Shown: positions 44,350 to 62,844, numbered from the stretch's first letter. The stretch is 64,000 nucleotides of DNA from Candidatus Heimdallarchaeota archaeon (GCA_011364965.1 RDOB01000002.1:128001-192000); one strand, 5' to 3'. Numbers and translations are program-made. Notes: generated by a model from the letters alone, not told the origin.

Positions 44350-45126
44350 TTGAATAGGATTGTGTGGGATATCGAAACGAGAAGTGCCAAAGGACAGGAA
44401 GAAATAATAAAAAATGAGTTTTTAGGTAAAGCATCTTTTGAAAATTTGATCAAATTCTTTCCTTTGAAATTGATCGAGTGGTTCTCTAGAAATCAGAGGG
44501 ATCTTCCTTGGCGAAGGACGAGAGATCCTTATAAAATTCTTGTAAGCGAAATTATGCTTCAACAAACAAACGTAGAGATAGTAATTCCAATTTATATGAA
44601 TTTTCTTCAGAAATTTCCTACAATCCAAGCCTTAGCTGCAGCAAAGGTTGAAGATGTGAAGATTATTACAGATAAATTAGGATATAAACGAAGAGGAGAG
44701 TTTTTACATTCTATCGCAAATCAAATTGTTAATGAAAAAGGTGGAAGAATCCCTGATTCATTGGATCAATTGCTAACTTTGAAGGGAATAGGCCGTTACA
44801 CTGCAGGAGCAATTTTAAGTTTTGCATTCGAGCGATCTGACCCCACAGCTGCAATTGTTGATGTAAATGTAGATCGCGTATTAAGTCGAATAACTGGTAT
44901 TTGGACTGAAGAACGCGATGCTTCTTTTATCAAAACGATTTGGACACTTGCTGAATCGATAATAATTCCAGGTAAAGTTTGGGAGGTTAATCAGGGAATA
45001 CTTGATCTTGGAGCAACGATTTGTGTATCAAAAAAACCAAAATGCGCTATTTGCCCAATGATAAAGATTTGTGAGTATTATAAAAGTGAATACCCAAAGC
45101 AAATACCACTTGATTCATTTTTATAA
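44350..45126 (+). CDS. mutY: HhH-GPD mismatch DNA glycosylase, short MutY-like with 4Fe-4S FCL motif
   Basis: RDLPWR, SEIMLQQT, LGY.RR, LKGIGRYTA, VDVNVDRVLSR and C-x6-C-x2-C-x5-C motifs. No C-terminal NUDIX-like domain. Start uncertain. Confidence 0.85.
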   Translation: MNRIVWDIETRSAKGQEEIIKNEFLGKASFENLIKFFPLKLIEWFSRNQRDLPWRRTRDPYKILVSEIMLQQTNVEIVIPIYMNFLQKFPTIQALAAAKVEDVKIITDKLGYKRRGEFLHSIANQIVNEKGGRIPDSLDQLLTLKGIGRYTAGAILSFAFERSDPTAAIVDVNVDRVLSRITGIWTEERDASFIKTIWTLAESIIIPGKVWEVNQGILDLGATICVSKKPKCAICPMIKICEYYKSEYPKQIPLDSFL

Positions 45127-47764: not shown

Positions 47765-47788
47765 AAGAAATGAAAAGGTTTTGAATTT

Positions 47789-50008
47789 ATGGTAAATATA
47801 AGTGTCGTTGAAAGAAAGCAAAAGGGACAATTTTTCACCAAAACTGAGATTGCAGTAAAAGTTGTAACGGAAATTTGCAATGACTTAATCGGGTATTTAG
47901 ATCAAGGTAATAAGAAAGACTATTCTATGTTTATAAACAAAATATTAAACATTAAGTTAATTGATCCCGCAATGGGTGATGGAGTTTTTCTTGTTGTTGC
48001 TTTAGAATATTTTACGAAAATCATTCAAGATATCTGGGGAGAAATAGTGAAAGATAATAATGTTCGTGCAAAGAATGATTTTAAAGAACGATTCAGGATA
48101 AATGGAATGAATAATGCTTTAACTGAATTAGATCGAGACCTGATTTGTCTTAAAATTCTATCTGAAATGATTTATGGAGTTGAAGTAGATCGTTTTATCT
48201 ATGAAAAAGCTATTCAAAATATTTTAGGTTTGTTTAATGTTCCTGAAGTTATAGAGATGGCAAAAAAACTCGTGAAAATTAAAATTAAACAAGGGAACTC
48301 TCTTATTTCTCCTTTACCATTAGAATTTAAAAAAAGTTTCAAATTTCTTTCTTTATTTAAATCAGAAATTAATTTAATTGTGAAAAATAGAGAAGCAATC
48401 TCTAAATTAATACTTGAAGGTTCTGATGTTTTAATTAAGAGAAAATTTATTGAAAACTCCCAAATTCGTAATTTAGTTATATCTAAGCTTAAAGGAGAAT
48501 TTTCAGATAGTAGTCAACTGCTTTACTTAACTTTGTTAAAGAAAAAAGAACAAATTCCTTTTTTTTGGGAGTTAGAATATCCTGAAGTCTTTTTATCAAA
48601 TAAATTTGGATTTGATGTGGTAATAGGTAATCCCCCTTGGGATAAATGGAAACTTTATGACAGAGAATGGCTAGGTTCGACTGTTCTTTCTTCTCCTGAA
48701 TTAATTAAGGAAACAATCAATGGTGCTCCATCAGAGTCTAAATTAAAATATCTTGAACTAAAAGAGTATTATAAAGAAACCTCAAAATACTTTAATACAT
48801 GCTATAAATGGCAACCTGGGGAAAAAAATCTTTATAAATTATTTCTGGAACGTTTTTATGATCTTACCTCTGAAATGGGTTATTTTGGAATAATTATTCC
48901 GAGTGGAATTCTAGGGGAATATTTTAGTAAATCATTACGAAAAATGCTTTTAGAGAATGTAAAATTAATATCTGTTACAGAAATTGTATCTAATAAGGAA
49001 ATTTTCTCTGAGGTTGAACCAGGGATTAGTATTTCAGTAATACTGGCACAGAAGAATACACCTGATGTTACTTTTCTCTTTTCTAAAGATATTCATTCTT
49101 TAGATGATTTTAAACAAGCTCAAATGCGACTAATAGAAATAAACAATACTAATCATGTTCGAATGAATCGTAATGAAATAATATCTACTTCCCCTCATTA
49201 TATCATTCCATCAATACGTAATAACAAGGAATTAGCAGTCACAAGAAAAATTATTTCATTTCCATCGTTAACGTCTAAAGAATGGAAATGTAAGACATCA
49301 CGTGGTTTAGACATGACCAATGATCGTAATATGTTAACAAAGGATCCAAACGCATATCCTTTGGTTGAAGGCAGACATTTAGTCAGATTGGGGTATGATG
49401 ATAAACACCCTCGTTTTTGGATTCAATCACCTCAAAGATATTTTGAAAAATTCCCTTTTTGGAGAAGAACTTTCATTGGATGGAAAAATTTCTCTGGTAA
49501 TCATAGAAGAAGAAGAATGCGAATAGCTATTTTCCCAAAATCCACTTTCATATCTAATAGCATTTTATGTCTTTATGATTTTCCTGAGCAGGAAGATATT
49601 GAATATTATTTAGCTGGGGTATTATGTTCCGTTCCTTTTGAATTTCGAATTCGACAGATTTGTTATGGATTAAATATCAATCAATTTATAATCAAAAAGA
49701 TGAATATCCCAGCTTATGAAATGAAAAATCCTTTGCACAAAGCACTAGTTAATTTAATCAAAGACTTCGAACCCATTGGGATAAACTGGGCTTATAGAAA
49801 AATGGAGGCCTCCTCCTCTTCCGCAAAATCAGCTCTCGAGAAAGATTATTATCTTTATATAGCCCAAATAGATGCATTGGTTGCTCTAATTTATAATTTA
49901 ACAAAAGAAGAGTTTATTGTTACGCTTCAAGCACATCAAAGGTTAGAATCTTCCTACACAGAAGCAGCAGTGAATTCTTATACAAAATTCTCCCAAAATT
50001 TTAATTGA
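47789..50008 (+). CDS. Amino-DNA methyltransferase (Eco57I-like)
   Basis: RKQKGQFFT, IDPAMGDGVFL, YGVE, GNSL, FFWELEYPEVF, GFDVVIGNPPW and NLYKLFLE motifs. Confidence 0.88.
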   Translation: MVNISVVERKQKGQFFTKTEIAVKVVTEICNDLIGYLDQGNKKDYSMFINKILNIKLIDPAMGDGVFLVVALEYFTKIIQDIWGEIVKDNNVRAKNDFKERFRINGMNNALTELDRDLICLKILSEMIYGVEVDRFIYEKAIQNILGLFNVPEVIEMAKKLVKIKIKQGNSLISPLPLEFKKSFKFLSLFKSEINLIVKNREAISKLILEGSDVLIKRKFIENSQIRNLVISKLKGEFSDSSQLLYLTLLKKKEQIPFFWELEYPEVFLSNKFGFDVVIGNPPWDKWKLYDREWLGSTVLSSPELIKETINGAPSESKLKYLELKEYYKETSKYFNTCYKWQPGEKNLYKLFLERFYDLTSEMGYFGIIIPSGILGEYFSKSLRKMLLENVKLISVTEIVSNKEIFSEVEPGISISVILAQKNTPDVTFLFSKDIHSLDDFKQAQMRLIEINNTNHVRMNRNEIISTSPHYIIPSIRNNKELAVTRKIISFPSLTSKEWKCKTSRGLDMTNDRNMLTKDPNAYPLVEGRHLVRLGYDDKHPRFWIQSPQRYFEKFPFWRRTFIGWKNFSGNHRRRRMRIAIFPKSTFISNSILCLYDFPEQEDIEYYLAGVLCSVPFEFRIRQICYGLNINQFIIKKMNIPAYEMKNPLHKALVNLIKDFEPIGINWAYRKMEASSSSAKSALEKDYYLYIAQIDALVALIYNLTKEEFIVTLQAHQRLESSYTEAAVNSYTKFSQNFN

Positions 50009-50033
50009 GAAGTAAAGCGATCAATTGATTTAT

Positions 50034-52661
50034 TTATGCTTGTGAAGATAGAAAATCTTTGATATAAGCGATCTCTAACTCAGTAATTTTAAATAATTCA
50101 TAGATTATTTTATTGATTTTATCAAACTCACCAATAAATTTATTCGAGTTATTGAACATCTTCCTTACTAAATTTACCAAATACGAATAATTCTTTGAAT
50201 TTTTCATCAAAAAAATTGGAAAGTGTTCAATTTGACGTGGATAAAATTCATACACGTTGCCTAAATTTTTAATAGAGTTGAGTGCATAGAAAGTGAGAAG
50301 CTCTGAATTGAGCAATGAAAGCAAATAGTAAAGTATATCTTCCTCAGTTCGATATTCATCTTTGGGAATAAGCCAAATCACATCCTTTGAAGAGAGCGAA
50401 CCTAGTTGATCTAAAGCAAAGGTATTTTTTTTGGATTTATATGGTGAGACGATTTTTGGACGTTCCCAATCCATTGTATTTCTTTCATCACCTTTTCTCC
50501 ACAAAAAATATTTTTGAACCCTCGATCTGTCAAATAACAGCTCTTTATTATTTCTTAGATAATCCATGAGTTTAACATCTTCTAAAATATCCTTTTCTTT
50601 ATAAAAGGGAGCAAAAATCACTTTTCTTTTTTTATATTCAACAAAATAGTTTTTAATGTCTTTACCTTTGATCCATGTTCTCAAATTAGAATCTTTTATT
50701 CCCATCTCATTTGAAAAATAGTCAGGTTTGTTTGTTGTGAAAACTTTGTCACAACCAGTCTCCACTCCTTTACTTATATCAAAAAATTGATTCAGGGTAA
50801 AGTTTGAAGCTTCTCTAATCTTTTTAAGAATTTTAAGAGTCATTTCATTATGAAATATCCATTTTTGTGGTTTTAATGAATTTTGATGTACTTGTAAGAA
50901 AGAATCATAATTCAAATCATTTTTCGGAGTATAGCGAAAAACAGCGATAGAATTTGTTTTCATCTCCTTTTTTTTCAGTATTAATACAATATTACTTATT
51001 TGTACTTCATTGAATAAGGAAATATTCAAAAAATCGTGGATTTCAAGTATTTGAGCAGAATTTTGAATAAATTCTCGTGTTCTAGCTGCATAAACGCTAT
51101 GCAGTAAATATTTTGGCAAAATAAATCCCAATAATCCTCTTAAGGGTTTTAAAGCTTCAATGCTCCTAACCAGAAAAAAGTAGGAAATATCATTATTTCC
51201 TGTGTAGATTTCTGGATATATAAAGCTCAATCTTTTTCTCAATAGTAGAGGAAGATCTGTTAGAGCAATAAAAGGTGGATTTCCGAGAATAATATCAAAT
51301 TTAGGATTTTTTCCAATTTTGAAGTCTATCCAATGAAATAAATTCGTAATTGTTGAAGGTTGTAGATGAGGTTGAAGAATAGATAGCTCATTAGCCTCTC
51401 CCCTAGTCATTGGTGATGAAAAAACAGCATATAGAGTAGTATTTGTTTGAAATGTATTTGAAAACCTTATTTTTGTTAAGGAAATGTCATCTAGTTTTAA
51501 TTTTAATGATGTCCATCTAATACGATCTCCTTCAAAAATAAGATATCGAAATTTAGGAATTTTTCTGAATATTTCTAATAATCCCGAAATTGTATTTTCA
51601 TTATCGAATTCATTATTATTAACATTATTAAAAGTGATTCTATAAACGGGATACTTCAATTCTAAATTCTTATTAAATAAATCATCTCGAGAGCATTCTA
51701 TGTTATCATTTTCTTCTCTCTGGTTTTCATTATTTTGAAATCCAAATAATGAGTTCCCTTTATATATATTGCATCGAAAAGGAGTTTCTTTAGAGTTACT
51801 CGAATCAAAACTCCATAACCATAATTTTAATCTTGAAATAAGAATTGCTACTGTATCTATATCAATACCAAATAAAATATTTTCAACAATCATTTTTTTA
51901 ATCGTTATTTCATCAGTTGGGGTAGAAAAAGATTCAAGCATTTCATTAATTATATTTCCACAGGCAATTAGGAAAATTGAACTTCCAGTAGCTGGATCCA
52001 GTATTTTTAAATTTGAAATTTGCTTTATTATATGTCTATTATCTGAGGAATCCTCTAAGTGAATTCTAGATATCCAAGAATTCACCATTTTTTCCGAAAG
52101 TTTAAGAGCAAACCAATATGGAGTGTAAATTTGGCCAAAACTTTCTATGTCGGTCTTATATGATCTTGAAATGAACTTTACATAATCAAATATAGAAAAA
52201 TCTATTACATTACTTTCTTGATCATATTCTTTAGTATGGTCGTTGATCCAGACGTAATTTTCCTTAAATTCTCTTGCAATGTTTTTCCAATTGATTTTAT
52301 TCAATTTAACTTGATCTACATAATCATAATGGTCAAAAAGATTAAAACAAACCTCTTTTGGTATTATGGAATTTATAAAATTTAAAAAATCCTTTTCTTG
52401 AAACAAAATTTCCTCCCAGGTCGTAATCTCTCTATTTTTCTTATCTATTTTATTTGGATCCAAAAAAAATAATGAGATAAATTGTAAGAGGATTATTTTG
52501 GAATAATCCATTTGTAAATGGCTTGGAATGATAACATCTGCAATATTTTCATATAGATTTTCTAATAGTATGCGAATACTTCTTGGTAGTTGCTTAATGC
52601 CCTTATTTCTGTCCTTAAGACAAAATATTAGCTTTTCCTCCAACCAAGAGAATCTAATCAT
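50034..52661 (-). CDS. Amino-DNA methyltransferase (Eco57I/TaqI-like) with TRD
   Basis: GQIYTP, ILDPATGSSIFL, FGIDID, GNSL, FDIILGNPPF and KGVETGCDKVF motifs. Confidence 0.88.
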   Translation of the reverse strand: MIRFSWLEEKLIFCLKDRNKGIKQLPRSIRILLENLYENIADVIIPSHLQMDYSKIILLQFISLFFLDPNKIDKKNREITTWEEILFQEKDFLNFINSIIPKEVCFNLFDHYDYVDQVKLNKINWKNIAREFKENYVWINDHTKEYDQESNVIDFSIFDYVKFISRSYKTDIESFGQIYTPYWFALKLSEKMVNSWISRIHLEDSSDNRHIIKQISNLKILDPATGSSIFLIACGNIINEMLESFSTPTDEITIKKMIVENILFGIDIDTVAILISRLKLWLWSFDSSNSKETPFRCNIYKGNSLFGFQNNENQREENDNIECSRDDLFNKNLELKYPVYRITFNNVNNNEFDNENTISGLLEIFRKIPKFRYLIFEGDRIRWTSLKLKLDDISLTKIRFSNTFQTNTTLYAVFSSPMTRGEANELSILQPHLQPSTITNLFHWIDFKIGKNPKFDIILGNPPFIALTDLPLLLRKRLSFIYPEIYTGNNDISYFFLVRSIEALKPLRGLLGFILPKYLLHSVYAARTREFIQNSAQILEIHDFLNISLFNEVQISNIVLILKKKEMKTNSIAVFRYTPKNDLNYDSFLQVHQNSLKPQKWIFHNEMTLKILKKIREASNFTLNQFFDISKGVETGCDKVFTTNKPDYFSNEMGIKDSNLRTWIKGKDIKNYFVEYKKRKVIFAPFYKEKDILEDVKLMDYLRNNKELLFDRSRVQKYFLWRKGDERNTMDWERPKIVSPYKSKKNTFALDQLGSLSSKDVIWLIPKDEYRTEEDILYYLLSLLNSELLTFYALNSIKNLGNVYEFYPRQIEHFPIFLMKNSKNYSYLVNLVRKMFNNSNKFIGEFDKINKIIYELFKITELEIAYIKDFLSSQA

Positions 52662-54023: not shown

Positions 54024-57000
54024 ATGGCATCCTCACAAAGAAGAAACGAAACATTTTTAGGTTATAGATCGTGGTTTGATGCGTTTCGATTTAATGAAAG
54101 AATCTCCCTTCCAATTTTTATTCTTGATTATCAAACATCAAGTTTTTGGAAGGAAAATGAGGAGACAATTAATGAGTATGAAACTGATCAAAATCACTCG
54201 CGATCCATGCTAATAAATGGTATACAAATTTTCTTCCTTGATGAAAATCATCAAAAACGTAAAGCATTTTTACGTCATGAACCTTACTTTTATCTCTTAC
54301 TTGAAAAAGACCTTTCAAAGGAACATCTCAATCGAATCATTTCACAAATCTATCAAATAGGAGAAAATCACGTTCAACAAATAGAGGAGAAGAATTACTA
54401 CGATGCTGCTGATCTTACATTCCTTGTTTCCAAGTCATTTCTAAAGATCACCGTTGATCATCCCGGTTCTGTTCCTAAATTACGAGATAAATGTGAAGCA
54501 TTAAATGGAGTAATCGAATGGCGAGAAGCAGATGTATTATTTCATCATAGAACTGCAATAGACCATAATTTACGCGTAGGATATTGGTATCAAGCTGAAA
54601 TCCGAGGTGGAGAAATTCAATCTATTTATCATATAAATAATAAAGCACCACCTCAATTAAAAATACTAGCATTCGATATAGAAACTGCTTTTGAAACAAC
54701 AAGAGAACCTAATCCGAACCGCGATGAAATATCAATGATTTCATTATTTACTGGAGATAGGAACTATCTTCTAGTAAATTCGTCTGTGGTTGAAACCAAG
54801 GATATCAGAAATATTGATATACTCCTAAGGTACGCTGATAAAGAACATAAGAAGCCTTGGGTGGATTGGCGATATTCAAATGATACTTTTGAAGCGCCTG
54901 AACATATTGAAAAGTATTATTTTAATATCCAGCTCTTTGATAACGAGCGAGAAATTTTACAGGCATTTTATCAAGTGATCAGAGACTATCAACCTGATGT
55001 TCTTGCTGATTTTTTTGGGGGAAGATTTGATATCCCTTTTCTTTCTGTGAGGTCAGAGCTTAACAATTTGTCTTTGGAAAGGGAAACTGGATTTAAGATT
55101 GTTTTTAAAATAGGTACCGGTAAAAGATCAAACGAAAAGACTGATTTGAAGAACAATTATACTCCTAATAGCATAGATTATGTTGAAGGAGCAGGAATTA
55201 TACATCTAGATGCCTTCCTATTTAATGAGAAATACAGTTACCTTCCCAAGAAGGATTTAGGTTTAAAACAGAGTGTTGAGAAAAAACTCAAAATTATTCC
55301 AATAGGTAGAGAAGCATTATTTGCTATCGAAGAAAATCCTGCCGAAGCTGCTGCATATGCGGGATGTGATGGATATATTTCGTGGAAATATGTTAAGGAA
55401 ATTGTCCTTGATTTTTTCATCTCTATGGGACAGATGTTTCCCGTTCCTGCTTCAGAGTTGTTATCCCGAAGATCAGGCTCTTTGGATGACTTATTGATCG
55501 ATGCAGAAAATTTCCAGCATGGAATTGTCAGTAAAAGAAAAATCTCTTCCAAAATAATTGAATCTTTTTCGCCTAAACTTGTGATAAACAATCTTGCTTA
55601 TACAGGTGGACTAGTTGAAGCTAGACGTCCTGGAATTTTCAGAAGTGATATTTTCTATGATTTTAAATCAGAGAAAGAAGCTTTAGATGAATTAAAGATT
55701 GCAATTGAAAAAGTAATACGAAAAGAAAGTATGGAATTAAATAAAAAGATTATAAAGGAGGAATTTGAGAAACAAGTCCTCTCTGAGCTTGGAGATGTGG
55801 TTATTGAGTATTCAGAAGATCCTTCTGAGATCTTATCACAAATTGAATCTGGAATGGTAAGAAATGGTGTTCCAAGAGCGAAATTAAAGATCCAGTTGAA
55901 TAAAATTCGGGATATATTAGAAAATATATCTGCATATCACCCTGAAGATGTGGAAAATATTATAGATGAGGTATTTCAAGCACTAGACAAATTAAAGCTT
56001 TCTAATGACAAAACAAAGTTAATTGGAGTTCATGTTGACGTTACAAGTATGTACCCATCTCAAATTCGTCAATATAAACTTCAACCTTCAGGAATTGTAC
56101 CTTTAACGAAATGCCAAACATGTGATTTATACGAAAAGGATGAAAGTTGCCTTTTTGACGGAGATTGGGTTATAAAAATTTCATCACAGCGTCCTTGTCG
56201 ATTTAAGGTGGAAGGTTCTAGTAAATGTGATCCCTCAGTTTGCAAAGCGGAGAATGAACTAAAATGTAAAAGGTATCAACCTTTGCAAGATTCACTTGGA
56301 CGATCTCAAGAGATTTATACCTTTAATGGAGAAAAAACAGAAGCTTATACCAGAAGAGGTGACCAATTAATACAAGTTCCAATAAGTGAAACCTATTTGG
56401 GTTTAACAACTGAACATGATCTTTTCATTTCTGTTCAACAGTGGTTACGAAGAAATGTAGAGGCAACTCAATTAACAACTAAATTGGACAAGAACTATTT
56501 TGATATATTTGAAGATCAACCTCCTGATTTTGAACTTCCTCCCAATACGTTCATGAGTATTGATACTAGAACGAAAAAAATTAGTATATTGTTATCTGTA
56601 AATTCTCGGGTGTGCCAAAAAGCATATAATTTTGTTGCCAGAATTATGGATGATTTTTTCAATACAAGGGTAAAGCATAAGTTAGAGGCCCAAAGACTTA
56701 AACAGGTTATTTCTCAAAGGAAATCTGCAAATTTAGCTATTCCTTCTGAATTAACTAGACTTCAAAAATTCCATGATAGCACACAATTAGGAATGAAAGT
56801 TCCTTTAAATAGTATATACGGACTTTTAGGTATGAAGGGAGGTGTAAGAAATGCTAGTACGCCCTGCGCTGGAATTACAACAAAATTGTCAGCAGATTTA
56901 ATCCATTGGGCTGCAGAAGAGCTAGAGTACGTTGGTTTAGTTACAGAATTAGATACTGATGGTATCTGGTTATGGGTACCCCAAGATTTTCCGCTTTTCT

Positions 57001-58427
57001 TTAAAGTTTGCCTTTCCAATCCTAATGTTAAGAACAGTAAGAAGCAATTTGAAGTAAGTCTAATCGACAAAATTCTCAACGAAAAGGTCAAGAAATTTTC
57101 TCAGAACGATAATTATTGGGTAAATGACGGGCATTGTATTAGTCGATCGCGAAAGAACTTAATTAAATTTGAACAAGACGGCCCCTATGATTTTCAGTTT
57201 GTCATGGGAAAAAAGAAATATATAATTTATAATTATGAAAATAATGAATGGCAAGAAAAAGAGATAACTGGATTAGAATCAAAAAGAGCAGACTTTTCAA
57301 AATTACAGAAATATTTTCAAGAAAAGATCATCAATAGCTATCTAGAGGACTATGATCCGCAAAATCCCATTACTTTAGAAGAGCTTTATCAAAATGCAGA
57401 TAAAATGGCTCAGAAAATAAAAGAAGAAATTTATAGCGGAACTATTGATCCTAGTTATTTCGTAAAACCAAAAGCTATCAACAAACCTTTAAGTGCTTAC
57501 AAATCCAAACTTCCCCAAGTGAACGCAGCTTATATCCTTCGAGACCTTGGTTTTTCTGTGGATCCAGGTACAAGGATCCAGATGTTAAATTTAAAAGGTA
57601 ATCATGTAATCCCTCGACAAGTTTTTGATTTTGATTTCAAGAAAATAAAGGAAGTTCTTGTTAAGCATGCAATTGCTACATTGAGTTTCATGCTGGGAGA
57701 ACTATCGACAAAAGAGGACCTAATGAAATTAATTGATGTGAATCAGTACTCAGAAGATCTTTTTGGTCCCGGAAGAATTTATGATAGAATGATAAAATAT
57801 CCAATGGAAATTCAACAAGTTTCGAGTAGTGCACAAACAACTTTGAATCTAAAATCGAAAATCAGAAGTAAGAAGACTGAGACTGATAGTAATTTTGAAG
57901 ATGAAGGCCCCATTACTGATGAGAAAGAAAATTTAAAAAATGAAAAAGCATTACCACATCTTAAACCAAAACCGAGACAAAAAAGAGGGATTCGCAGAAA
58001 GAAAAAGAGGCAGAGGAATGAAGCTCAGCCTATTGCACTTGATGCTTTACTTGAACCTTCACAATCAGTTAATAAGGGAAATAAAATTGAAATCAAAGAG
58101 AATGAGTATATAACAAGAGAAACCGAGGCCAAAAAAGTAATCCAAATAAGGGGCTCCTCCGATAAAGTAGAATCTGAAGTTTTTAGAGAAAATTCCCAGA
58201 ATAAATCTCTAAGTAAAGATGCTTTGGTTTCCACTGATGAAATTTCTGAGTTAGAATCAGATGAGATTTTTAATAATGGATCTGGCAATGGTAAGAGTGC
58301 AAAAAGTCTAGAGTTAGGAACGTTGGAGGAAGAGCTAATTGTCTGCTCGGAATGTGGGGCGTTAGTAAGCCCGCGAGAAATTACTAATGAAGGGTGTATT
58401 TTCTGTGGAGGAGAATCTTTAATCTAA
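54024..58427 (+). CDS. polB: Family B DNA polymerase, Pol epsilon-like catalytic subunit
   Basis: EPYFY, ExoI LAFDIET, ExoII RFDIPF, ExoIII YAGCD, YTGGLVE...GIFRSDI, motif A DVTSMYP, CysX CQTC..C...VCQK, motif B KVPLNSIYG, motif C ELDTDGIW, GLESKR, C-terminal CxxC-x13-CxxC. Confidence 0.92.
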   Translation: MASSQRRNETFLGYRSWFDAFRFNERISLPIFILDYQTSSFWKENEETINEYETDQNHSRSMLINGIQIFFLDENHQKRKAFLRHEPYFYLLLEKDLSKEHLNRIISQIYQIGENHVQQIEEKNYYDAADLTFLVSKSFLKITVDHPGSVPKLRDKCEALNGVIEWREADVLFHHRTAIDHNLRVGYWYQAEIRGGEIQSIYHINNKAPPQLKILAFDIETAFETTREPNPNRDEISMISLFTGDRNYLLVNSSVVETKDIRNIDILLRYADKEHKKPWVDWRYSNDTFEAPEHIEKYYFNIQLFDNEREILQAFYQVIRDYQPDVLADFFGGRFDIPFLSVRSELNNLSLERETGFKIVFKIGTGKRSNEKTDLKNNYTPNSIDYVEGAGIIHLDAFLFNEKYSYLPKKDLGLKQSVEKKLKIIPIGREALFAIEENPAEAAAYAGCDGYISWKYVKEIVLDFFISMGQMFPVPASELLSRRSGSLDDLLIDAENFQHGIVSKRKISSKIIESFSPKLVINNLAYTGGLVEARRPGIFRSDIFYDFKSEKEALDELKIAIEKVIRKESMELNKKIIKEEFEKQVLSELGDVVIEYSEDPSEILSQIESGMVRNGVPRAKLKIQLNKIRDILENISAYHPEDVENIIDEVFQALDKLKLSNDKTKLIGVHVDVTSMYPSQIRQYKLQPSGIVPLTKCQTCDLYEKDESCLFDGDWVIKISSQRPCRFKVEGSSKCDPSVCKAENELKCKRYQPLQDSLGRSQEIYTFNGEKTEAYTRRGDQLIQVPISETYLGLTTEHDLFISVQQWLRRNVEATQLTTKLDKNYFDIFEDQPPDFELPPNTFMSIDTRTKKISILLSVNSRVCQKAYNFVARIMDDFFNTRVKHKLEAQRLKQVISQRKSANLAIPSELTRLQKFHDSTQLGMKVPLNSIYGLLGMKGGVRNASTPCAGITTKLSADLIHWAAEELEYVGLVTELDTDGIWLWVPQDFPLFFKVCLSNPNVKNSKKQFEVSLIDKILNEKVKKFSQNDNYWVNDGHCISRSRKNLIKFEQDGPYDFQFVMGKKKYIIYNYENNEWQEKEITGLESKRADFSKLQKYFQEKIINSYLEDYDPQNPITLEELYQNADKMAQKIKEEIYSGTIDPSYFVKPKAINKPLSAYKSKLPQVNAAYILRDLGFSVDPGTRIQMLNLKGNHVIPRQVFDFDFKKIKEVLVKHAIATLSFMLGELSTKEDLMKLIDVNQYSEDLFGPGRIYDRMIKYPMEIQQVSSSAQTTLNLKSKIRSKKTETDSNFEDEGPITDEKENLKNEKALPHLKPKPRQKRGIRRKKKRQRNEAQPIALDALLEPSQSVNKGNKIEIKENEYITRETEAKKVIQIRGSSDKVESEVFRENSQNKSLSKDALVSTDEISELESDEIFNNGSGNGKSAKSLELGTLEEELIVCSECGALVSPREITNEGCIFCGGESLI

Positions 58428-58660: not shown

Positions 58661-60919
58661 ATGGAAAATATAGCTAATTTACAATCAATTGGATCACTTG
58701 AAAATTTTGCCTTAAATAAAACTGAACAATTTTTAAAACCCCGAACACCTTTAGATTTTCTATTTTTAGTATTATGCATATTATGGTGGATAATTGCAGT
58801 TGTTTTTCCAAGTACCCCAATTTTTCGAGGTACAATATTTAGTTTTGCTATTGTTGTGTTTTTCCTGATCCCTATATACATTCTTTTTAATAAAGAAGGG
58901 CATACCATGGCTTCTCCCCTGAACCGTGCCTTCAAACTTCTATTATTTTATCTATTGATTAATTTCTTTATTCCCTCTTCTAATATTCCCAATTTTCTTC
59001 CTCCAAGTATTCCGATAACGTATGGTGAGATAGAAAGGACAATTGTATGTCTATTAATACCTCTCACTATGTTAATAAAAGCCTTTGCCCTGGATACTCT
59101 GCGAATTGGATATTTATTTTACATTCAAAGCATTATACGAGGTTTCTGGACTGCATTTATTATTTTGTTCATTATGAAGGGGATTCAACTCTTTATTCCT
59201 ACTCCTCTAATAAATTTCGATTTTGATCTCTTTCTGCTACTAGCTTTTGGATTATATTTATTTGGATCAGTGTTACCAGGAGTACCAAAACAAATATCTT
59301 TTGATGCTAGTTCATTCATTAACCAGTATCAGGCGTTACAAACAAGAATGGAAAGAATTCGTGACGCATTACTTACATCAGCAATTACTTTGTTAATTTT
59401 CTTGTGGTTACAATGGATTAATTTATCAAATCGGGAATTATTTCAATATATCGCTTTTATTTGTTTAGTTATGGGTATTTTATTAATATTTGCACCCAAA
59501 AAGAAAACACAGAATGGATTAAATTCACTCTTAAGTTCTCTTTCCCAAAAGGGAAATTTTATTGATCCAAAAAGTCAGCTTGGTTCCAAGGTACAAGAAT
59601 ATGCAAAAAGCATACAAGCAGTAGAATTTAATAAACCAAATCAAGTATATTCGATCCCTTCTGAATCCCTTAAGTTAATAAGTAAAGGTAAAACCTCAAT
59701 TAGCGCTAATAAAGGTACTTTAGCTGTTCCAACTGTAACAGATAAGGGAACAGCTCTGGTACTAATGGGAAAATCAGAAATGACAACTGAAGAAGGTGAA
59801 AAGGTGCTTGGAGAAACAACAACAATATGGCTTCCACCAGAGGAATGGGATAGAGTAAAAGTAAACTTACAGCCCAAAAAGATGGAAGAAATTCTTCAAA
59901 CTGACCTTAAAGAAGCTGGTCTTGAGAATTTTAATGATTTAGTCAATAAATCCAAACACGCTTTAGAGGAGTTAAAATCCTGGAAAGGGCCCGAAAATAT
60001 ATTTTCTTCCGTGCTCGATGCTCCCACCTCTAAGTACACCATTACTGAAACAAAAGATTATTCTTTAGTGCGATTACCTGGAATTTTTGTTTTTGAGGCC
60101 AAAGGAATTGAATTAGTTAATATTCTGGGGGGATTAGTTAAAGTTATTGAAGTTAAAGGCGTAGGAGAGTATGTTCAAATTCTGGGAGGACTCGTAACTG
60201 TTTTAGATACTCCTGATTACGAATTTGTGCAAACACCTTTTGTTTCTGTAATTGATACCCCACAGGGAGAAATGGTTAGGGTATTTGGAATTAATATTCA
60301 AGAAGGAGACAAAATTGATTTAATTAAAATGAGAGAAAAAATTTTACGGGATCAAGCTAGTTTTGATTCTTTATTCACGCAAAAAATTGATACTATATTT
60401 CAAGAAAATCCCCAAATTTTATTAACTGAATCCAAAGGAACGACTGAAGGGTTTCTATTTGGGCAAGACGAAATATTAGGTGATCTGGTGGAACGTTCAA
60501 AGAAAAGTAAGAAGAAAGACAAACAAGTGAGAGTTCCTCCAATTCCTCCAATTCCTCCAATTCCTCCAAAACCAATTAAGCCAGACAAATCTACAGTACT
60601 TGGAAAATTCCAATGGACTAATCAAATAGAAAAGGTTTCATCGGAGAGCATCAAGGAAATTTCCTATAAAAGAGATATATCCAATGACATCCATTTATTA
60701 GAAAGTGATGACAAGGATTCTGAAGCTCATCCTCAGATTATTGAACTTCAAGATGCAATTAAAAGAACTGAAACAATGATTGATAATGCAGATGAAAGAT
60801 TAATTTCAGGTGAAATTTCAGAAGAAAAACACACAGAAATAATAGATCGTTTAATTAAAAGGAAGAAGGATCTCGAGGAGCAAATTGAACGAATTAATGG
60901 AAGATTGAAATTGCTATAA
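58661..60919 (+). CDS. Multi-pass membrane protein with beta-repeat region, polyproline tract and C-terminal coiled coil
   Basis: About 8 N-terminal TM segments, repeated V.I(L)GG/P.V.V.E/D units, (PPI)n tract, C-terminal SGEISEEKH helical hairpin. Confidence 0.7.
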   Translation: MENIANLQSIGSLENFALNKTEQFLKPRTPLDFLFLVLCILWWIIAVVFPSTPIFRGTIFSFAIVVFFLIPIYILFNKEGHTMASPLNRAFKLLLFYLLINFFIPSSNIPNFLPPSIPITYGEIERTIVCLLIPLTMLIKAFALDTLRIGYLFYIQSIIRGFWTAFIILFIMKGIQLFIPTPLINFDFDLFLLLAFGLYLFGSVLPGVPKQISFDASSFINQYQALQTRMERIRDALLTSAITLLIFLWLQWINLSNRELFQYIAFICLVMGILLIFAPKKKTQNGLNSLLSSLSQKGNFIDPKSQLGSKVQEYAKSIQAVEFNKPNQVYSIPSESLKLISKGKTSISANKGTLAVPTVTDKGTALVLMGKSEMTTEEGEKVLGETTTIWLPPEEWDRVKVNLQPKKMEEILQTDLKEAGLENFNDLVNKSKHALEELKSWKGPENIFSSVLDAPTSKYTITETKDYSLVRLPGIFVFEAKGIELVNILGGLVKVIEVKGVGEYVQILGGLVTVLDTPDYEFVQTPFVSVIDTPQGEMVRVFGINIQEGDKIDLIKMREKILRDQASFDSLFTQKIDTIFQENPQILLTESKGTTEGFLFGQDEILGDLVERSKKSKKKDKQVRVPPIPPIPPIPPKPIKPDKSTVLGKFQWTNQIEKVSSESIKEISYKRDISNDIHLLESDDKDSEAHPQIIELQDAIKRTETMIDNADERLISGEISEEKHTEIIDRLIKRKKDLEEQIERINGRLKLL
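60534..60569 (+). repeat. 9-bp tandem repeat TTCCTCCAA x4 (encodes PPIPPIPPIPP)
   Basis: Four exact copies visible in the sequence. Confidence 0.95.
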
Positions 60920-60924
60920 TATTA

Positions 60925-62844
60925 TTAATCTTCCATTGGATTTAATGTTAGATTTAAACTTTCTATTAGGCTTTTAATCTTGTATTTAGCTTCCGCTGAG
61001 ACAAATTCTCCCTCCTTTTGCCTTAAAGATTTTATTCGATCTTGAATAGTTTTTTCTCGTTCTTTATCATTAATTTTCGGATTCAATTCGGTCCAATCTA
61101 ATAAAAAGGAAGCTGCACGCATGAAATAATCTAGTGATTTTGATTCTTCATTCTCGTTGAACGCTACAATCCCTGCATGGTGATACATTGTACTTGCTCT
61201 CCGAAAACTGATTCCTGCGTTGATTATGATCTTTTCTTGTTGTTCTTGCGCCTTCTGGTTTTTCAAATCATTTTCCAATCCTTTTGCTGCCTCCAAAAAG
61301 GCATATGCTGCTTTCTCGTACTGCTCGATCTGGAATAAGTTATTTGCATATTCAACATTAACAAAAACCATTTCAGAGGGTGAAAATTTTCCTTTTCTTA
61401 AATACTTTAACGCGTCTTCAAAAGAGCTTAATGCTGCACGAATTGCGTTATTTTTGTTTTCTAGCTTTCCTCGTTCAAATAATGTTAGACCTAATAGAGC
61501 TGAAGATTGTTCTGAAGATTCTTGTTTATAAAGGATTTCAAGAATTTTATTAAATAGCTTCAATGAGACATTTGGAGAATCAGAGTTTTTTGCTGTATCA
61601 AATAATGTTTTTGCTGCAAGAATGTTTTCATTTACATCAATGAAAATATTAATGGCAGTTAATAATAGTGAAAGCGCTTTTTCACTGTTTCCAAGTGAGA
61701 AGTATGCATTTGCTGCAAGTATTAAAGAGCGGGCCGTATCCTTCTCCCTTCCTGGTATTTTTTGAAGAAGATCGGCTGTTGTGATTCGTTGTTCAGCTGC
61801 TTTCCTAAGTAAACCTAATGCTAATGCTGGATTCTCGTTTTTTTCTTGGTCTGCTTGAGACGAAAGTTTACTTGAATAGATTGCAGAAACTTTTGCAGCT
61901 AAAGATATATCTGAAGATTTAGCAAGTTTTATTGCTTTTTCAAAATAGCTATTTGCTTCTTCACGTTTATTTTGTTCATGATAAGCAGTTGCTATTTCAT
62001 AATTCAATATTATTTGCGTTTTTGGATTTGTTAGCCAAAGTGATCCTGCTTGCATTAATTCTATTGCTTTATCAAATTCTTTTAGATAAGATGCAGCTTT
62101 TCCTGCCAAGAAAGAAGATTCTCCTGCTTTTTCGAGCTGTCTTACCTGTGCAAATAAATCAGCAGCTTTCTCAAAAGCTTCTTTTCCATCGTGAAAATTT
62201 CCACTTGCTAAAAAAATATTTCCAACTAACATGAAAGCTTCAGCTGAAGAATTATCATCAATGGTTTCCAAACGATTTGCTATCTTTAAAGCAGTCCAAA
62301 GCTGCTGTCTATCTTTTAGCTCTGTCCAAGCTTGCTTTGCAACTTCTAAGTCTCTTAATGCTTGTGAAATAGCATAATCTTCCCCTACATCCATTGAAAT
62401 TGATTTTGTTTCGATTTTTTCAGGCTCTCTTGACGATTTTGAAGCAATTTTATACCAAATATCTTCTGTTTTAAAGTTAGATTTTCTTTCCTTTAATATG
62501 TTTAAATATTCGTAAATATACATATTTAAATGCGTATTGATTAAATAGGAAGTTTCCTGATCCGAGATGAACGCTATGAAGAATACTCTTTCTTTTCCTC
62601 TTAATGAATGATCTTCCCAAGAATCAAACGCAACTCTGGCAACTGTTGTGTTACCAAGGCTTAACAGAGGCACAGTGAATTCCGTTCTTTGCGTATGACC
62701 GTGTTGTCCAAAAACAGTGACAGAGGCCAAATAAATTTGTAATGCTACTGATTCTGGGTCTTCTAAAGATGAATTAGGGTAAATTGAAATGATTTGGGGT
62801 CCAGATACTTCATCCCATTGAACTGCAAGTATTGATAAATCCAT
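60925..62844 (-). CDS. Longin/uDENN-like domain fused to TPR/SNAP-like alpha-solenoid
   Basis: N-terminal ILAVQWDEVSGPQIISIYP (uDENN-like FD..GP hairpin), then many A/G-rich helical repeats (FEKAADLF, YEKAAYAFLEAA). Confidence 0.7.
   Translation of the reverse strand: MDLSILAVQWDEVSGPQIISIYPNSSLEDPESVALQIYLASVTVFGQHGHTQRTEFTVPLLSLGNTTVARVAFDSWEDHSLRGKERVFFIAFISDQETSYLINTHLNMYIYEYLNILKERKSNFKTEDIWYKIASKSSREPEKIETKSISMDVGEDYAISQALRDLEVAKQAWTELKDRQQLWTALKIANRLETIDDNSSAEAFMLVGNIFLASGNFHDGKEAFEKAADLFAQVRQLEKAGESSFLAGKAASYLKEFDKAIELMQAGSLWLTNPKTQIILNYEIATAYHEQNKREEANSYFEKAIKLAKSSDISLAAKVSAIYSSKLSSQADQEKNENPALALGLLRKAAEQRITTADLLQKIPGREKDTARSLILAANAYFSLGNSEKALSLLLTAINIFIDVNENILAAKTLFDTAKNSDSPNVSLKLFNKILEILYKQESSEQSSALLGLTLFERGKLENKNNAIRAALSSFEDALKYLRKGKFSPSEMVFVNVEYANNLFQIEQYEKAAYAFLEAAKGLENDLKNQKAQEQQEKIIINAGISFRRASTMYHHAGIVAFNENEESKSLDYFMRAASFLLDWTELNPKINDKEREKTIQDRIKSLRQKEGEFVSAEAKYKIKSLIESLNLTLNPMED

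What the first reader, a model, noticed from the sequence alone, without database searches (positions are those of the whole stretch)
54024..58427. Archaeal Pol epsilon-like polymerase with only the catalytic module
Seen: motifs tracking eukaryotic Pol2/POLE rather than archaeal PolB1-3, including READV..H.R.AID..LRVG.WY, SYLP...GLK, R.SGSL, GIFRSDI followed by a helical P-domain-like insert, DSTQL..K..LNS.YG and ELDTDGIW. After the thumb there is only a disordered linker and one Zn finger; the second, inactive polymerase module of eukaryotic Pol2 is absent. Established: Pol epsilon-like genes have been reported in some Heimdallarchaeia. Inference: it resembles a pre-fusion ancestor of the eukaryotic leading-strand polymerase and is a strong taxonomic marker.
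Basis: partly seen in the sequence, partly recalled or inferred. Interest (0 to 1): 0.8.

Follow-up and report, generated by a model that had tools for sequence, protein, structure and literature searches.

The report
Hodarchaeal Pol epsilon-like DNA polymerase
This gene encodes the single-module DNA polymerase of Hodarchaeales archaea that is the closest known prokaryotic relative of the active half of the eukaryotic leading-strand polymerase; the family is already published, so the gene is a clean further example, with a few unreported details in its iron-sulfur/P-domain region and tail.

Summary
ORF 54024-58427 (+) encodes a 1467-aa family-B polymerase with intact exonuclease and polymerase motifs. 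Its best matches by sequence and by predicted fold are Pol epsilon catalytic cores, far ahead of archaeal PolBs. After the thumb come only a basic low-complexity linker and one C4 zinc ribbon; it has no second module and no eukaryote-type zinc fingers.

It belongs to archaeal PolB group "B10" (Kazlauskas 2020), also called Hodarchaeal "PolB1". A 2025 paper already calls that group a possible pre-LECA Pol epsilon precursor, so the main reading is known.

- **Marker value:** the gene is in 23 of 24 genomes of the order and in 0 of 376 other genomes of the phylum searched.
- **Fe-S ligands:** all four CysX cysteines are invariant in 69-75 archaeal and eukaryotic sequences.
- **P-domain position:** the archaeal insert is about 75 aa longer and carries a second invariant Cys4 set. 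Modelled alone, it matched nothing solved, so superposition on the P-domain is not shown.
- **PCNA motif:** the linker holds a PIP-like motif; predicted PCNA binding has weak support only.
- **PolD:** a complete PolD is kept in the same genome.

Whether the gene is ancestral or was transferred remains unresolved.

The parts
54024..58427 (+). Whole gene: 1467-aa Pol epsilon-like family-B DNA polymerase (archaeal group B10 / Hodarchaeal PolB1)
   Evidence: ORF listing and translation. 100% identical protein already in the public collection and 66-67% identical nearest relatives.
54522..55259 (+). 3'-5' exonuclease domain (residues 167-412). Exo I is D218/E220 (FDIET), Exo II D336, Exo III Y445/D449.
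   Evidence: Pfam PF03104, E 8.7e-24. These residues are invariant in 45 archaeal sequences and in 75 archaeal plus eukaryotic sequences.
55650..56012 (+). Helical insert in the palm between GIFRSD and motif A (residues ~543-663). Four predicted helices; about 50 aa longer than in eukaryotic Pol epsilon.
   Evidence: Alignment with eukaryotic Pol epsilon. AF2 secondary structure, model helices 492-600 = residues 551-659.
56031..56072 (+). Motif A, HVDVTSMYPSQIRQ (D672; M676/Y677, as in yeast SMYPN)
   Evidence: The other two PolBs of the genome have SLYPS/SLYPN.
56112..56150 (+). First three CysX ligands: C697-x2-C700-x8-C709
   Evidence: They align with human and other eukaryotic C-x2-C-x8-C. 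Invariant in 75 and in 69 sequences. Yeast CysX is C665/C668/C677/C763 (PMC6582351).
56151..56612 (+). P-domain-equivalent insert (residues 710-863). From the residue before the first CysX cysteine to six residues past the fourth, the region spans 180-219 aa in archaeal members and mostly 100-111 aa in eukaryotes.
   Evidence: Span lengths, alignment A3. Isolated model has pLDDT 86.2 and a mixed alpha/beta fold. No PDB match.
56196..56267 (+). Extra archaea-only cysteine set: C725-x9-C735-x4-C740-x7-C748
   Evidence: Invariant in 45 archaeal sequences. This segment is absent from eukaryotic Pol epsilon.
56613..56615 (+). Fourth CysX ligand, C864 (RVCQKA; eukaryotes have [IV]C[QM]RE)
   Evidence: Invariant in all 75 and all 69 sequences.
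56775..56834 (+). Motif B / fingers: DSTQLGMKVPLNSIYGLLGM (K925, N929, Y932, G933)
56946..56963 (+). Motif C, ELDTDG (D977, D979), with the Pol epsilon-clade glutamate
   Evidence: The glutamate is named as the clade's synapomorphy in PMC7544198. The genome's other PolBs have YGDTDS.
57276..57797 (+). Thumb domain (about residues 1085-1258); conservation ends at R1255/M1256
   Evidence: Model secondary structure, family conservation. No PF22634 POL2_thumb hit at E<=0.01.
57798..58331 (+). Low-complexity, lysine/arginine-rich linker (residues 1259-1436)
   Evidence: No domain match. Poorly conserved apart from two short motifs.
58026..58052 (+). PIP-like short motif, QPIALDALL (residues 1335-1343). 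Relatives have QSL[DE]xLF after a basic run.
   Evidence: Alignment. Human POLE PIP is QKKISELF (PMC11381554). Complex prediction with the genome's own PCNA gave weak support only.
58242..58280 (+). Acidic conserved motif, ISELESDEIFNNG (residues 1407-1419)
   Evidence: Family consensus E..ELE....F.NG.
58344..58406 (+). C-terminal C4 zinc ribbon: C1441-x2-C1444 ... C1458-x2-C1461
   Evidence: The four cysteines are present in at least 90% of 45 relatives. Only a sub-threshold Zn_ribbon_3 hit. Described as a single metal-binding motif of group B10 in PMC7544198.

Best explanation
**What it is.** The gene encodes an active, proofreading family-B DNA polymerase of archaeal group B10, also called Hodarchaeal 'PolB1'. 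This is the archaeal counterpart of the N-terminal catalytic module of eukaryotic Pol epsilon.

**Shown by sequence and model:**
- The exonuclease and polymerase catalytic residues are intact.
- The predicted core is most like Pol2/POLE cores.
- All four CysX cysteines are conserved.
- An insert sits at the P-domain position.

**Inferred:**
- The CysX cysteines hold a [4Fe-4S] cluster at the hinge between the insert and the fingers, as in yeast and human Pol epsilon.
- The enlarged insert, together with the thumb, wraps the nascent duplex and adds intrinsic processivity.
- The four extra invariant cysteines bind a second metal, most simply structural zinc.
- The basic linker carries a PIP-like motif that tethers the enzyme to PCNA.
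- The terminal zinc ribbon docks an unknown partner. That partner is not DP1, according to published two-hybrid data.

The enzyme works beside a complete PolD and two ordinary PolBs. Its division of labour in the cell (leading strand, repair or other) is not known.
For: **Identity**
- The family includes the Heimdallarchaeota LC_3 protein, and its named members are mostly labelled Hodarchaeales.
- B10 is monophyletic at SH-aLRT 100. Together with Pol epsilon it is split at 100 from 29 other Asgard PolBs.
- The gene is present in 23 of 24 genomes of the order and in none of 376 other genomes of the phylum.

**Activity**
- Exo I-III, motifs A, B and C, and KxY are invariant.

**Fold**
- AF2 model of residues 60-1259: pLDDT 87.4, pTM 0.83.
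- Foldseek: the top 36 hits are all Pol epsilon cores (E 1e-60 to 1e-46, TM 0.63-0.76). The next hits are Thermococcales PolB (E 1e-33).
- VIA-align: Z 29.8 with 915-965 residues aligned to Pol epsilon, against about 710 residues to Thermococcales PolB.

**Fe-S**
- C697, C700, C709 and C864 are invariant in 75 and in 69 archaeal plus eukaryotic sequences.
- They align with the yeast and human CysX ligands (PMC6582351).
- The model puts C697 in a short helix, as reported for yeast residues 664-668.

**Second site**
- C725, C735, C740 and C748 are invariant in 45 archaeal members.

**PCNA**
- The conserved motif QSL[DE]xLF has the hydrophobic spacing of human QKKISELF.
- Complex prediction scored 0.33, with the best of 3 controls at 0.01. 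This mark was reached by 58 of 80 solved complexes and 2 of 110 mismatched pairs. At 0.60 or under it was reached by only 7 of those 80 and by both mismatches that passed, so the support is weak.
- The runs agree in at least 65% of contacts, and the partner's pLDDT is at least 44. PIP-PCNA complexes are solved, so likeness to them may drive the score.

**Context**
- The genome has complete DP2 and DP1.
- DP2 is found in 22 of 24 genomes of the order.
- The locus is syntenic in relatives, including a closed genome.
Against: - No biochemistry exists for any member that I could find.
- The insert modelled alone (pLDDT 86) did not match the Pol epsilon P-domain or any solved chain, so the 'P-domain' function rests on position, not on fold.
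- In this particular protein the PIP-like motif is degenerate: IALDALL, with no aromatic residue and the Q displaced. The binding prediction is weak.
- The thumb does not reach the Pfam POL2_thumb model.
- Metal binding by either cysteine set is inferred from conservation only. I had no coordinates, so I could not measure cysteine distances.
- With PolD retained, the enzyme need not be a main replicase.
Confidence: 0.88

Rival explanations
1. The gene is not a vertical 'pre-fusion ancestor'. Hodarchaeales acquired it by lateral transfer from stem eukaryotes, or from a virus or plasmid that also supplied the eukaryotic lineage. On this view the resemblance says nothing about a sister relationship.
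For: - Argued in PMC12395588, and PMC7544198 also calls the origin unclear.
- The gene is confined to one order: 0 of 376 other Asgard genomes searched.
- It is very far from the other Asgard PolBs.
- Two orphan single-module relatives of unknown origin, P0083 and P0100, fall in the same unresolved node. They have eukaryote-size inserts and C-terminal PIP-like ends.
- The order keeps PolD, so the gene looks like an addition.
Against: - Archaeal and eukaryotic clades are each monophyletic at SH-aLRT 100, so any transfer predates both crown groups.
- The gene is near-universal in the order and syntenic across species with 60-68% identity, including a closed chromosome. No mobile-element genes lie beside it.
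- G+C is 0.33-0.34, like the rest of the window.
- The direction of transfer cannot be read from my tree.
Confidence: 0.3
2. It is a specialised repair or back-up polymerase rather than a processive replicase. The bulk of replication is done by PolD and the canonical PolB, and the enlarged insert and tail serve recruitment to damage or to another complex.
For: - Complete DP2 and DP1, plus two canonical PolBs, are in the same genome. One of those PolBs ends in a canonical PIP box, QINLMDFF.
- The PIP-like motif of this protein is degenerate, and its PCNA prediction is weak.
- An HhH-GPD glycosylase gene lies 9 kb upstream.
Against: - The proofreading site is intact, and purifying selection is strong across the whole core in an order-wide single-copy gene.
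- Pol epsilon-specific elements tied to processivity are conserved at the same positions.
- The neighbouring genes are methyltransferases and a longin-TPR cluster, not a repair operon.
Confidence: 0.25
3. The gene is a fragment of a eukaryotic or viral genome wrongly binned into an archaeal genome.
For: Its closest named non-archaeal relatives are all eukaryotic.
Against: - It lies in the middle of a 472-kb contig.
- The same gene with the same neighbours is on a closed 4.9-Mb chromosome, CP070695.1, and in LC_3.
- It is found in 23 of 24 genomes of the order.
- It has no introns, only 24-27% identity to eukaryotes, and the window's own base composition.
Confidence: 0.01

Closest known systems
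Archaeal PolB group B10 (Kazlauskas et al. 2020, PMC7544198), also called 'PolB1' of Hodarchaeales (PMC12680538)
   Same: - Same clade as the LC_3 protein (36-38% identity).
- Motif C has the glutamate (ELDTDG).
- Single-module architecture.
- C-terminal domain with one C4 metal motif.
- Restricted to the LC3/B3-type Heimdallarchaeia.
   Different: - It belongs to the larger, later-sampled genus-level group (60-68% identity among members), not the LC_3 family.
- Its genome keeps a complete PolD, whereas the LC3/B3 genomes were described as lacking active DP2. In my search, DP2 matches in that second family are weak (E 1e-7 to 1e-9).
- In the library I could search, I found no report of the CysX conservation, the extra Cys4 set or the linker motif.
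Eukaryotic Pol epsilon catalytic subunit, N-terminal module (yeast Pol2 core, human POLE 1-1200; PDB 4m8o, 6qib, 9b8t)
   Same: - Best sequence and fold match.
- Same catalytic motifs, including SMYP in motif A and ELDTDG in motif C.
- Four CysX ligands.
- Inserts at the same two palm positions.
- A PIP-like motif after the thumb.
   Different: - No inactive C-terminal polymerase module (DUF1744) and no CysA/CysB zinc fingers.
- The insert at the P-domain site is about 75 aa longer, carries four more invariant cysteines and does not match the solved P-domain when searched alone.
- The helical palm insert is about 50 aa longer.
- The PIP-like motif lies about 80 residues beyond the thumb, in a basic linker.
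- The thumb falls below the POL2_thumb Pfam model.
Canonical archaeal PolB1/B2/B3, e.g. Thermococcus/Pyrococcus PolB and the two other PolBs of this genome (L001, L002)
   Same: Common family-B fold: about 710 residues align at Z about 26.6. Exonuclease and polymerase chemistry are shared.
   Different: - Motif C is YGDTDS and motif A is SLYPS in those enzymes. They have no CysX and no inserts, and L001 has a C-terminal canonical PIP box.
- They are separated from this family in the tree at SH-aLRT 100.
- E-values are about 40 orders of magnitude weaker.

Membership tests
Archaeal PolB group B10 / Hodarchaeal PolB1 | Clusters with the Heimdallarchaeota LC_3 / B3 polymerases, apart from PolB1-9 | tested here: met
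   The LC_3 protein P0064 is in the hit list and in the 16-row clade with SH-aLRT 100. Groups B4-B9 themselves were not sampled.
Archaeal PolB group B10 / Hodarchaeal PolB1 | Conserved glutamate in motif C (E-x-DTD), shared with PolEpsilonN and bacterial G3 | tested here: met
   ELDTDG at residues 975-980. E975 is invariant in 45 and in 75 sequences. The feature is named in PMC7544198.
Archaeal PolB group B10 / Hodarchaeal PolB1 | C-terminal domain with a single cysteine-rich metal-binding motif | tested here: met
   C1441, C1444, C1458 and C1461 are present in at least 90% of 45 members.
Archaeal PolB group B10 / Hodarchaeal PolB1 | Restricted to the LC3/B3-type Heimdallarchaeia (Hodarchaeales) | tested here: met
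   23 of 24 genomes of the order; 0 of 376 others of the phylum searched. Source names are mostly Hodarchaeales.
Eukaryotic Pol epsilon catalytic subunit (Pol2/POLE) | Active N-terminal PolB module of the epsilon type | tested here: met
   Best PDB sequence hits at 1e-58. Foldseek top 36 are all Pol epsilon. VIA Z 29.8 over 915-965 residues.
Eukaryotic Pol epsilon catalytic subunit (Pol2/POLE) | CysX motif: four cysteines that bind the [4Fe-4S] cluster | tested here: met
   C697, C700, C709 and C864 are invariant with the eukaryotic ligands in alignments of 75 and 69 sequences. Metal binding itself was not tested.
Eukaryotic Pol epsilon catalytic subunit (Pol2/POLE) | P-domain fold inserted in the palm | tested here: inconclusive
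   An insert sits at the same site, flanked by the same ligands. Modelled alone (pLDDT 86.2), it gave no Foldseek match at E<=0.001 and a best VIA Z of 3.8, with no Pol epsilon chain listed.
Eukaryotic Pol epsilon catalytic subunit (Pol2/POLE) | Fused inactive C-terminal PolB module (DUF1744, PF08490) | tested here: not met
   No hit in the protein. Fungal control P0072 hits it at 8e-110. Only 209 residues follow the thumb.
Eukaryotic Pol epsilon catalytic subunit (Pol2/POLE) | C-terminal CysA/CysB zinc-finger domain that binds the B subunit (PF23250, PF22912) | tested here: not met
   No hit, while the fungal control hits both. Only one C4 motif is present. Published two-hybrid work found no DP1 interaction (PMC12680538).
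Eukaryotic Pol epsilon catalytic subunit (Pol2/POLE) | PIP motif after the thumb that binds PCNA | tested here: inconclusive
   A PIP-like motif is conserved in the linker. Complex prediction scored 0.33 against a best control of 0.01, a weak pass.
Canonical archaeal PolB1-3 | Motif C YGDTDS, motif A DxxSLYPS, about 780-900 aa without palm inserts | tested here: not met
   This protein has ELDTDG, SMYPS and two large inserts. The genome's own L001 and L002 show the canonical motifs and fall on the other side of a branch with SH-aLRT 100.

The most novel reading that the evidence does not exclude
The archaeal counterpart of the P-domain is a larger, structurally distinct domain carrying two metal centres: the CysX [4Fe-4S] site shared with eukaryotes, plus a second, archaea-only Cys4 site (C725, C735, C740, C748). 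On this reading the eukaryotic P-domain is a reduced version of it. Alternatively, the archaeal domain is an elaboration, and short-insert orphans such as P0083 and P0100 are nearer to the eukaryotic form. The family would then offer a bacterially expressible model for how the Fe-S hinge controls Pol epsilon.
Probability: 0.4. Interest if true: 0.5.

Novelty: already known. Interest (0 to 1): 0.3.

Why it matters
Pol epsilon is the eukaryotic leading-strand polymerase. Its origin as a fusion of two PolB modules is an open question in eukaryogenesis. The Hodarchaeales enzyme is the only known cellular, single-module relative with the epsilon-specific hallmarks.

That point is already in the literature, so this window adds no new kind of thing. 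It does add three things:
- A clean full-length example on a long contig.
- Evidence that the Fe-S ligands, stated in the literature to be unique to Pol epsilon orthologues, are fully conserved in the archaeal family.
- Concrete, testable details: a second Cys4 site, a PIP-like motif, and coexistence with PolD.

The family could serve as a simpler experimental system for the Fe-S cluster and P-domain of Pol epsilon.

Tried and rejected
- **Isolated insert fold search.** I searched the model of residues 690-870 (pLDDT 86.2) on its own. Foldseek against the PDB gave no match at E<=0.001 (best 0.17). VIA-align against 48,161 chains gave a best Z of 3.8, with no polymerase listed. Superposition on the P-domain is therefore not shown. 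A roughly 100-residue domain inside a 1100-residue chain can be missed, so this does not prove that the folds differ.
- **Cysteine geometry.** No model coordinates are given to the script box, so I could not measure distances for either cysteine set.
- **DUF1744 in the genome.** The search of the whole genome for PF08490 found nothing, but the control genomes did not ring either, so that search is uninformative. Absence from the protein itself rests on hmmscan with a fungal positive control.
- **Tree sampling.** Eukaryotic Pol alpha, delta and zeta, bacterial G3, and archaeal B8 and B9 could not be obtained with the searches available. The tree has only Asgard PolBs as the outside group, used a quick LG+G4 search, and carries a long-branch warning.
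- **Orphan relatives.** The neighbours of P0083 and P0100 gave no Pfam or PHROG hit, so their origin stays unknown.
- **Lokiarchaeum homologue.** A homologue reported in Lokiarchaeum ossiferum (PMC12395588) did not appear. No genome outside the order among the 400 searched has a match at E<=1e-60.
- **Failed call.** The first attempt at the exhaustive search failed for technical reasons and was repeated.
- **Contamination.** I considered a mis-binned eukaryotic gene and rejected it on synteny and distribution.

Full report
**What is there**

The window has one long open frame at 54024-58427 on the + strand, 1467 aa with an ATG start. Base composition over the gene (G+C 0.33-0.34) is that of the surrounding DNA. 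Pfam finds the family-B exonuclease domain (residues 167-412, E 9e-24) and the polymerase domain (E 1.5e-14), and nothing else above threshold.

**Is it Pol epsilon-like?**

Yes, by four independent measures.
- **PDB sequences.** phmmer puts some twenty Pol epsilon catalytic subunits first (E 1e-58 to 1e-53). Thermococcales PolBs follow at 1e-17 and Pol delta at 7e-6.
- **Exhaustive search.** A HMMER scan of 1.84 billion cluster representatives lists members and fragments of the archaeal family first. Below them the list is almost entirely long, mostly ~2000-aa proteins at 1e-63 to 1e-33. Those that carry a source name or were scanned against Pfam are eukaryotic Pol epsilon. 159 hits fall at or below 1e-30.
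- **Predicted structure.** An AF2 model of residues 60-1259, built on 75 sequences, has pLDDT 87.4 and pTM 0.83. In Foldseek the top 36 PDB matches are yeast and human Pol epsilon cores (E 1e-60 to 1e-46, TM 0.63-0.76), followed by KOD-type PolBs at 1e-33. VIA-align gives Z 29.8 with 915-965 residues aligned to Pol epsilon, against about 710 residues to Thermococcales PolB.
- **Tree.** In an 83-row tree (quick IQ-TREE, LG+G4, 1036 columns), the 16 archaeal relatives form one clade (SH-aLRT 100) and 36 Pol epsilon rows form another (100). Both, with two orphan proteins, are split at 100 from 29 other Asgard PolBs, including the two other PolBs of this genome and three delta-like ones. The tree lacks Pol alpha, delta and zeta and the bacterial groups, and carries a long-branch warning. 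It excludes the reading 'ordinary archaeal PolB' but does not settle finer order.

**What family is it?**

The word-index search returned 71 proteins. These comprise the identical sequence, relatives at 58-67% identity, a second tier at 36-49%, some fragments, and then eukaryotic Pol epsilon at 24-25%. Where named, the relatives are mostly labelled Hodarchaeales. The second tier includes 'DNA polymerase [Heimdallarchaeota archaeon LC_3]'.

This is group B10 of Kazlauskas et al. 2020. They describe it as present in Heimdallarchaea LC3 and B3, sister to eukaryotic PolEpsilonN, sharing the motif C glutamate, and carrying a C-terminal domain with one metal-binding motif. [quoted passage not shown] That study found no two-hybrid interaction of its tail with DP1.

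**Marker value**

In 400 genomes of the phylum, a match at E<=1e-60 occurs in 23:
- this genome;
- 20 of 21 others of its GTDB genus (the one miss is a 1.4-Mb, 71%-complete genome);
- 2 of 2 genomes of a second family of the same order;
- 0 of 376 elsewhere.

The locus is syntenic in a closed 4.9-Mb chromosome and in another relative: methyltransferases and two small ORFs upstream, a ~750-aa ORF and a TPR protein downstream. The TPR neighbour is kept even in LC_3. This rules out mis-binning and argues for stable chromosomal inheritance within the order.

**Anatomy and likely mechanism**

*Catalytic sites.* All of the following are invariant in 45 archaeal sequences, and most also in the 75-row alignment with eukaryotes:
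- Exo I (D218, E220), Exo II (D336) and Exo III (Y445, D449);
- motif A (D672, with the epsilon-type M676-Y677);
- motif B (K925...Y932-G933);
- motif C (D977, D979);
- KKKY.

The enzyme should therefore both polymerise and proofread.

*Fe-S ligands.* C697-x2-C700-x8-C709 and C864 align with the eukaryotic CysX ligands (yeast C665, C668, C677, C763). They are invariant in every one of 75 and 69 archaeal plus eukaryotic sequences. The literature states that CysX and the P-domain are confined to Pol epsilon orthologues. I found no paper in the searchable library noting them in the archaeal family.

*The insert.* Between the third and fourth ligand lies the insert at the P-domain position. Measured over the region from just before the first ligand to six residues past the fourth, it spans 180-219 aa in archaea and mostly 100-111 aa in eukaryotes. 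The extra sequence includes four further cysteines (C725, C735, C740, C748), invariant in all 45 archaeal members and absent from eukaryotes. I infer a second metal site, most simply structural zinc.

*Fold of the insert.* Modelled alone, the insert folds confidently (pLDDT 86.2) into a mixed alpha/beta domain. It matched no solved chain, Pol epsilon included: Foldseek best E 0.17, VIA best Z 3.8. Homology of position and ligands is solid, but fold identity with the P-domain is not shown.

**The tail**

Conservation stops at R1255/M1256. A lysine/arginine-rich linker follows, with two conserved short motifs, and then a C4 zinc ribbon.
- **First motif.** It reads QSL[DE]xLF in relatives and QPIALDALL here. 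It has the hydrophobic i, i+3, i+4 spacing of the human POLE PIP motif QKKISELF.
- **Canonical PIP elsewhere in the genome.** The canonical PolB L001 ends in QINLMDFF.
- **Binding prediction.** Residues 1316-1360 against the genome's own PCNA scored 0.33, with the best of three controls at 0.01. That mark was reached by 58 of 80 solved complexes and 2 of 110 mismatched pairs. At 0.60 or under it was reached by only 7 of the 80 and by both passing mismatches, so the support is weak. The runs agree in at least 65% of contacts and the partner's pLDDT is at least 44. Likeness to solved PIP-PCNA complexes may drive the score.
- **What is missing.** No DUF1744, zf-DPOE or POL2_thumb match was found, whereas a fungal Pol epsilon control hits all three.

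**Cellular context**

The genome also encodes a complete DP2 (N-terminal, central and catalytic domains), a DP1 with its phosphoesterase domain, two canonical PolBs and one PCNA. DP2 is found in 22 of 24 genomes of the order. It matches strongly in this genus and weakly in the LC_3-type family, which fits the earlier report that LC3 and B3 lack an active DP2.

The epsilon-like enzyme is thus an addition to the archaeal polymerase set, not a replacement. Its role (leading strand, repair or other) is open.

**Origin**

My tree leaves the archaeal clade, the eukaryotic clade and two orphan single-module proteins in an unresolved node. The orphans, P0083 and P0100, keep CysX. They have eukaryote-size inserts and end in PIP-like motifs after a basic tail. 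Their contigs are short and uninformative.

Vertical descent and early lateral transfer from proto-eukaryotes or a mobile element, as argued in PMC12395588, both remain possible. Each crown clade is monophyletic, so any transfer was ancient.

**Verdict**

The modest additions are:
- the fully conserved Fe-S ligands;
- an enlarged insert with no match among solved structures and a second Cys4 set;
- a PIP-like linker motif;
- coexistence with PolD.

Other first-stage notes of this scan had flagged the Cys4 insert and the tail motifs on this same stretch.

Noticed in passing
Relatives P0016, P0021, P0028, P0061; genomes G060, G062, G067, G073, G074: Several orthologues are interrupted by inteins with LAGLIDADG endonuclease domains (PF14528, PF14890). 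The two insertion sites correspond to about residue 932 (motif B) and about residue 978 (motif C) of this protein. The window's copy has no intein.
   Followed up: partly
L007:1465-2367 (+), own genome contig C9, about 100 kb downstream of the window: The single PCNA (300 aa) ends in an acidic tail of about 40 aa with DEDWDEDE-type repeats. The tail is conserved across the genus but absent from the 266-267-aa PCNAs of the second family of the order. It may pair with the basic polymerase linker; I did not test this.
   Followed up: partly
L039:755-4153 (P0083, 1132 aa); L037:3236-7309 and L038:3162-7235 (P0100, 1357 aa): Two orphan metagenomic single-module Pol epsilon-like polymerases. They keep the CysX cysteines, have a short eukaryote-size insert, and carry a basic tail ending in PIP-like motifs (KIDLLSFFK and TLNMKDFLS). 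In the tree they fall in the same unresolved node as the archaeal and eukaryotic clades. Their source organisms are unknown.
   Followed up: partly
window 45269-52661: Three Eco57I/MmeI-type N6-adenine methyltransferase genes (831, 739 and 875 aa) lie upstream, with no nuclease gene seen. The arrangement next to the polymerase gene is kept in CP070695.1 (L063) and Ga0452214_000067 (L064).
   Followed up: partly
window 60925-62844 (-) and L065:10731-12638: A TPR/SNAP-like protein lies next but one downstream of the polymerase gene on the opposite strand (directly adjacent and convergent in LC_3). It is the only neighbour retained in LC_3. Other notes of this scan treat it as a longin-TPR protein.
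   Followed up: no
L008, L009, L010 (genomes G005, G006, G007 of the same phylum): PolBs with open frames of 1019-1358 aa match Pfam DNA_pol_B very strongly (E 1e-111 to 1e-127) and form their own clade. They may be the Pol delta-like PolB-DP2CTD fusions reported for Baldrarchaeia.
   Followed up: no
window 44350-45126 (+): An HhH-GPD base-excision glycosylase gene (258 aa).
   Followed up: no
window 58661-60919 (+): A 752-aa ORF directly downstream with no Pfam match. It is syntenic in relatives (753 and 741 aa).
   Followed up: no
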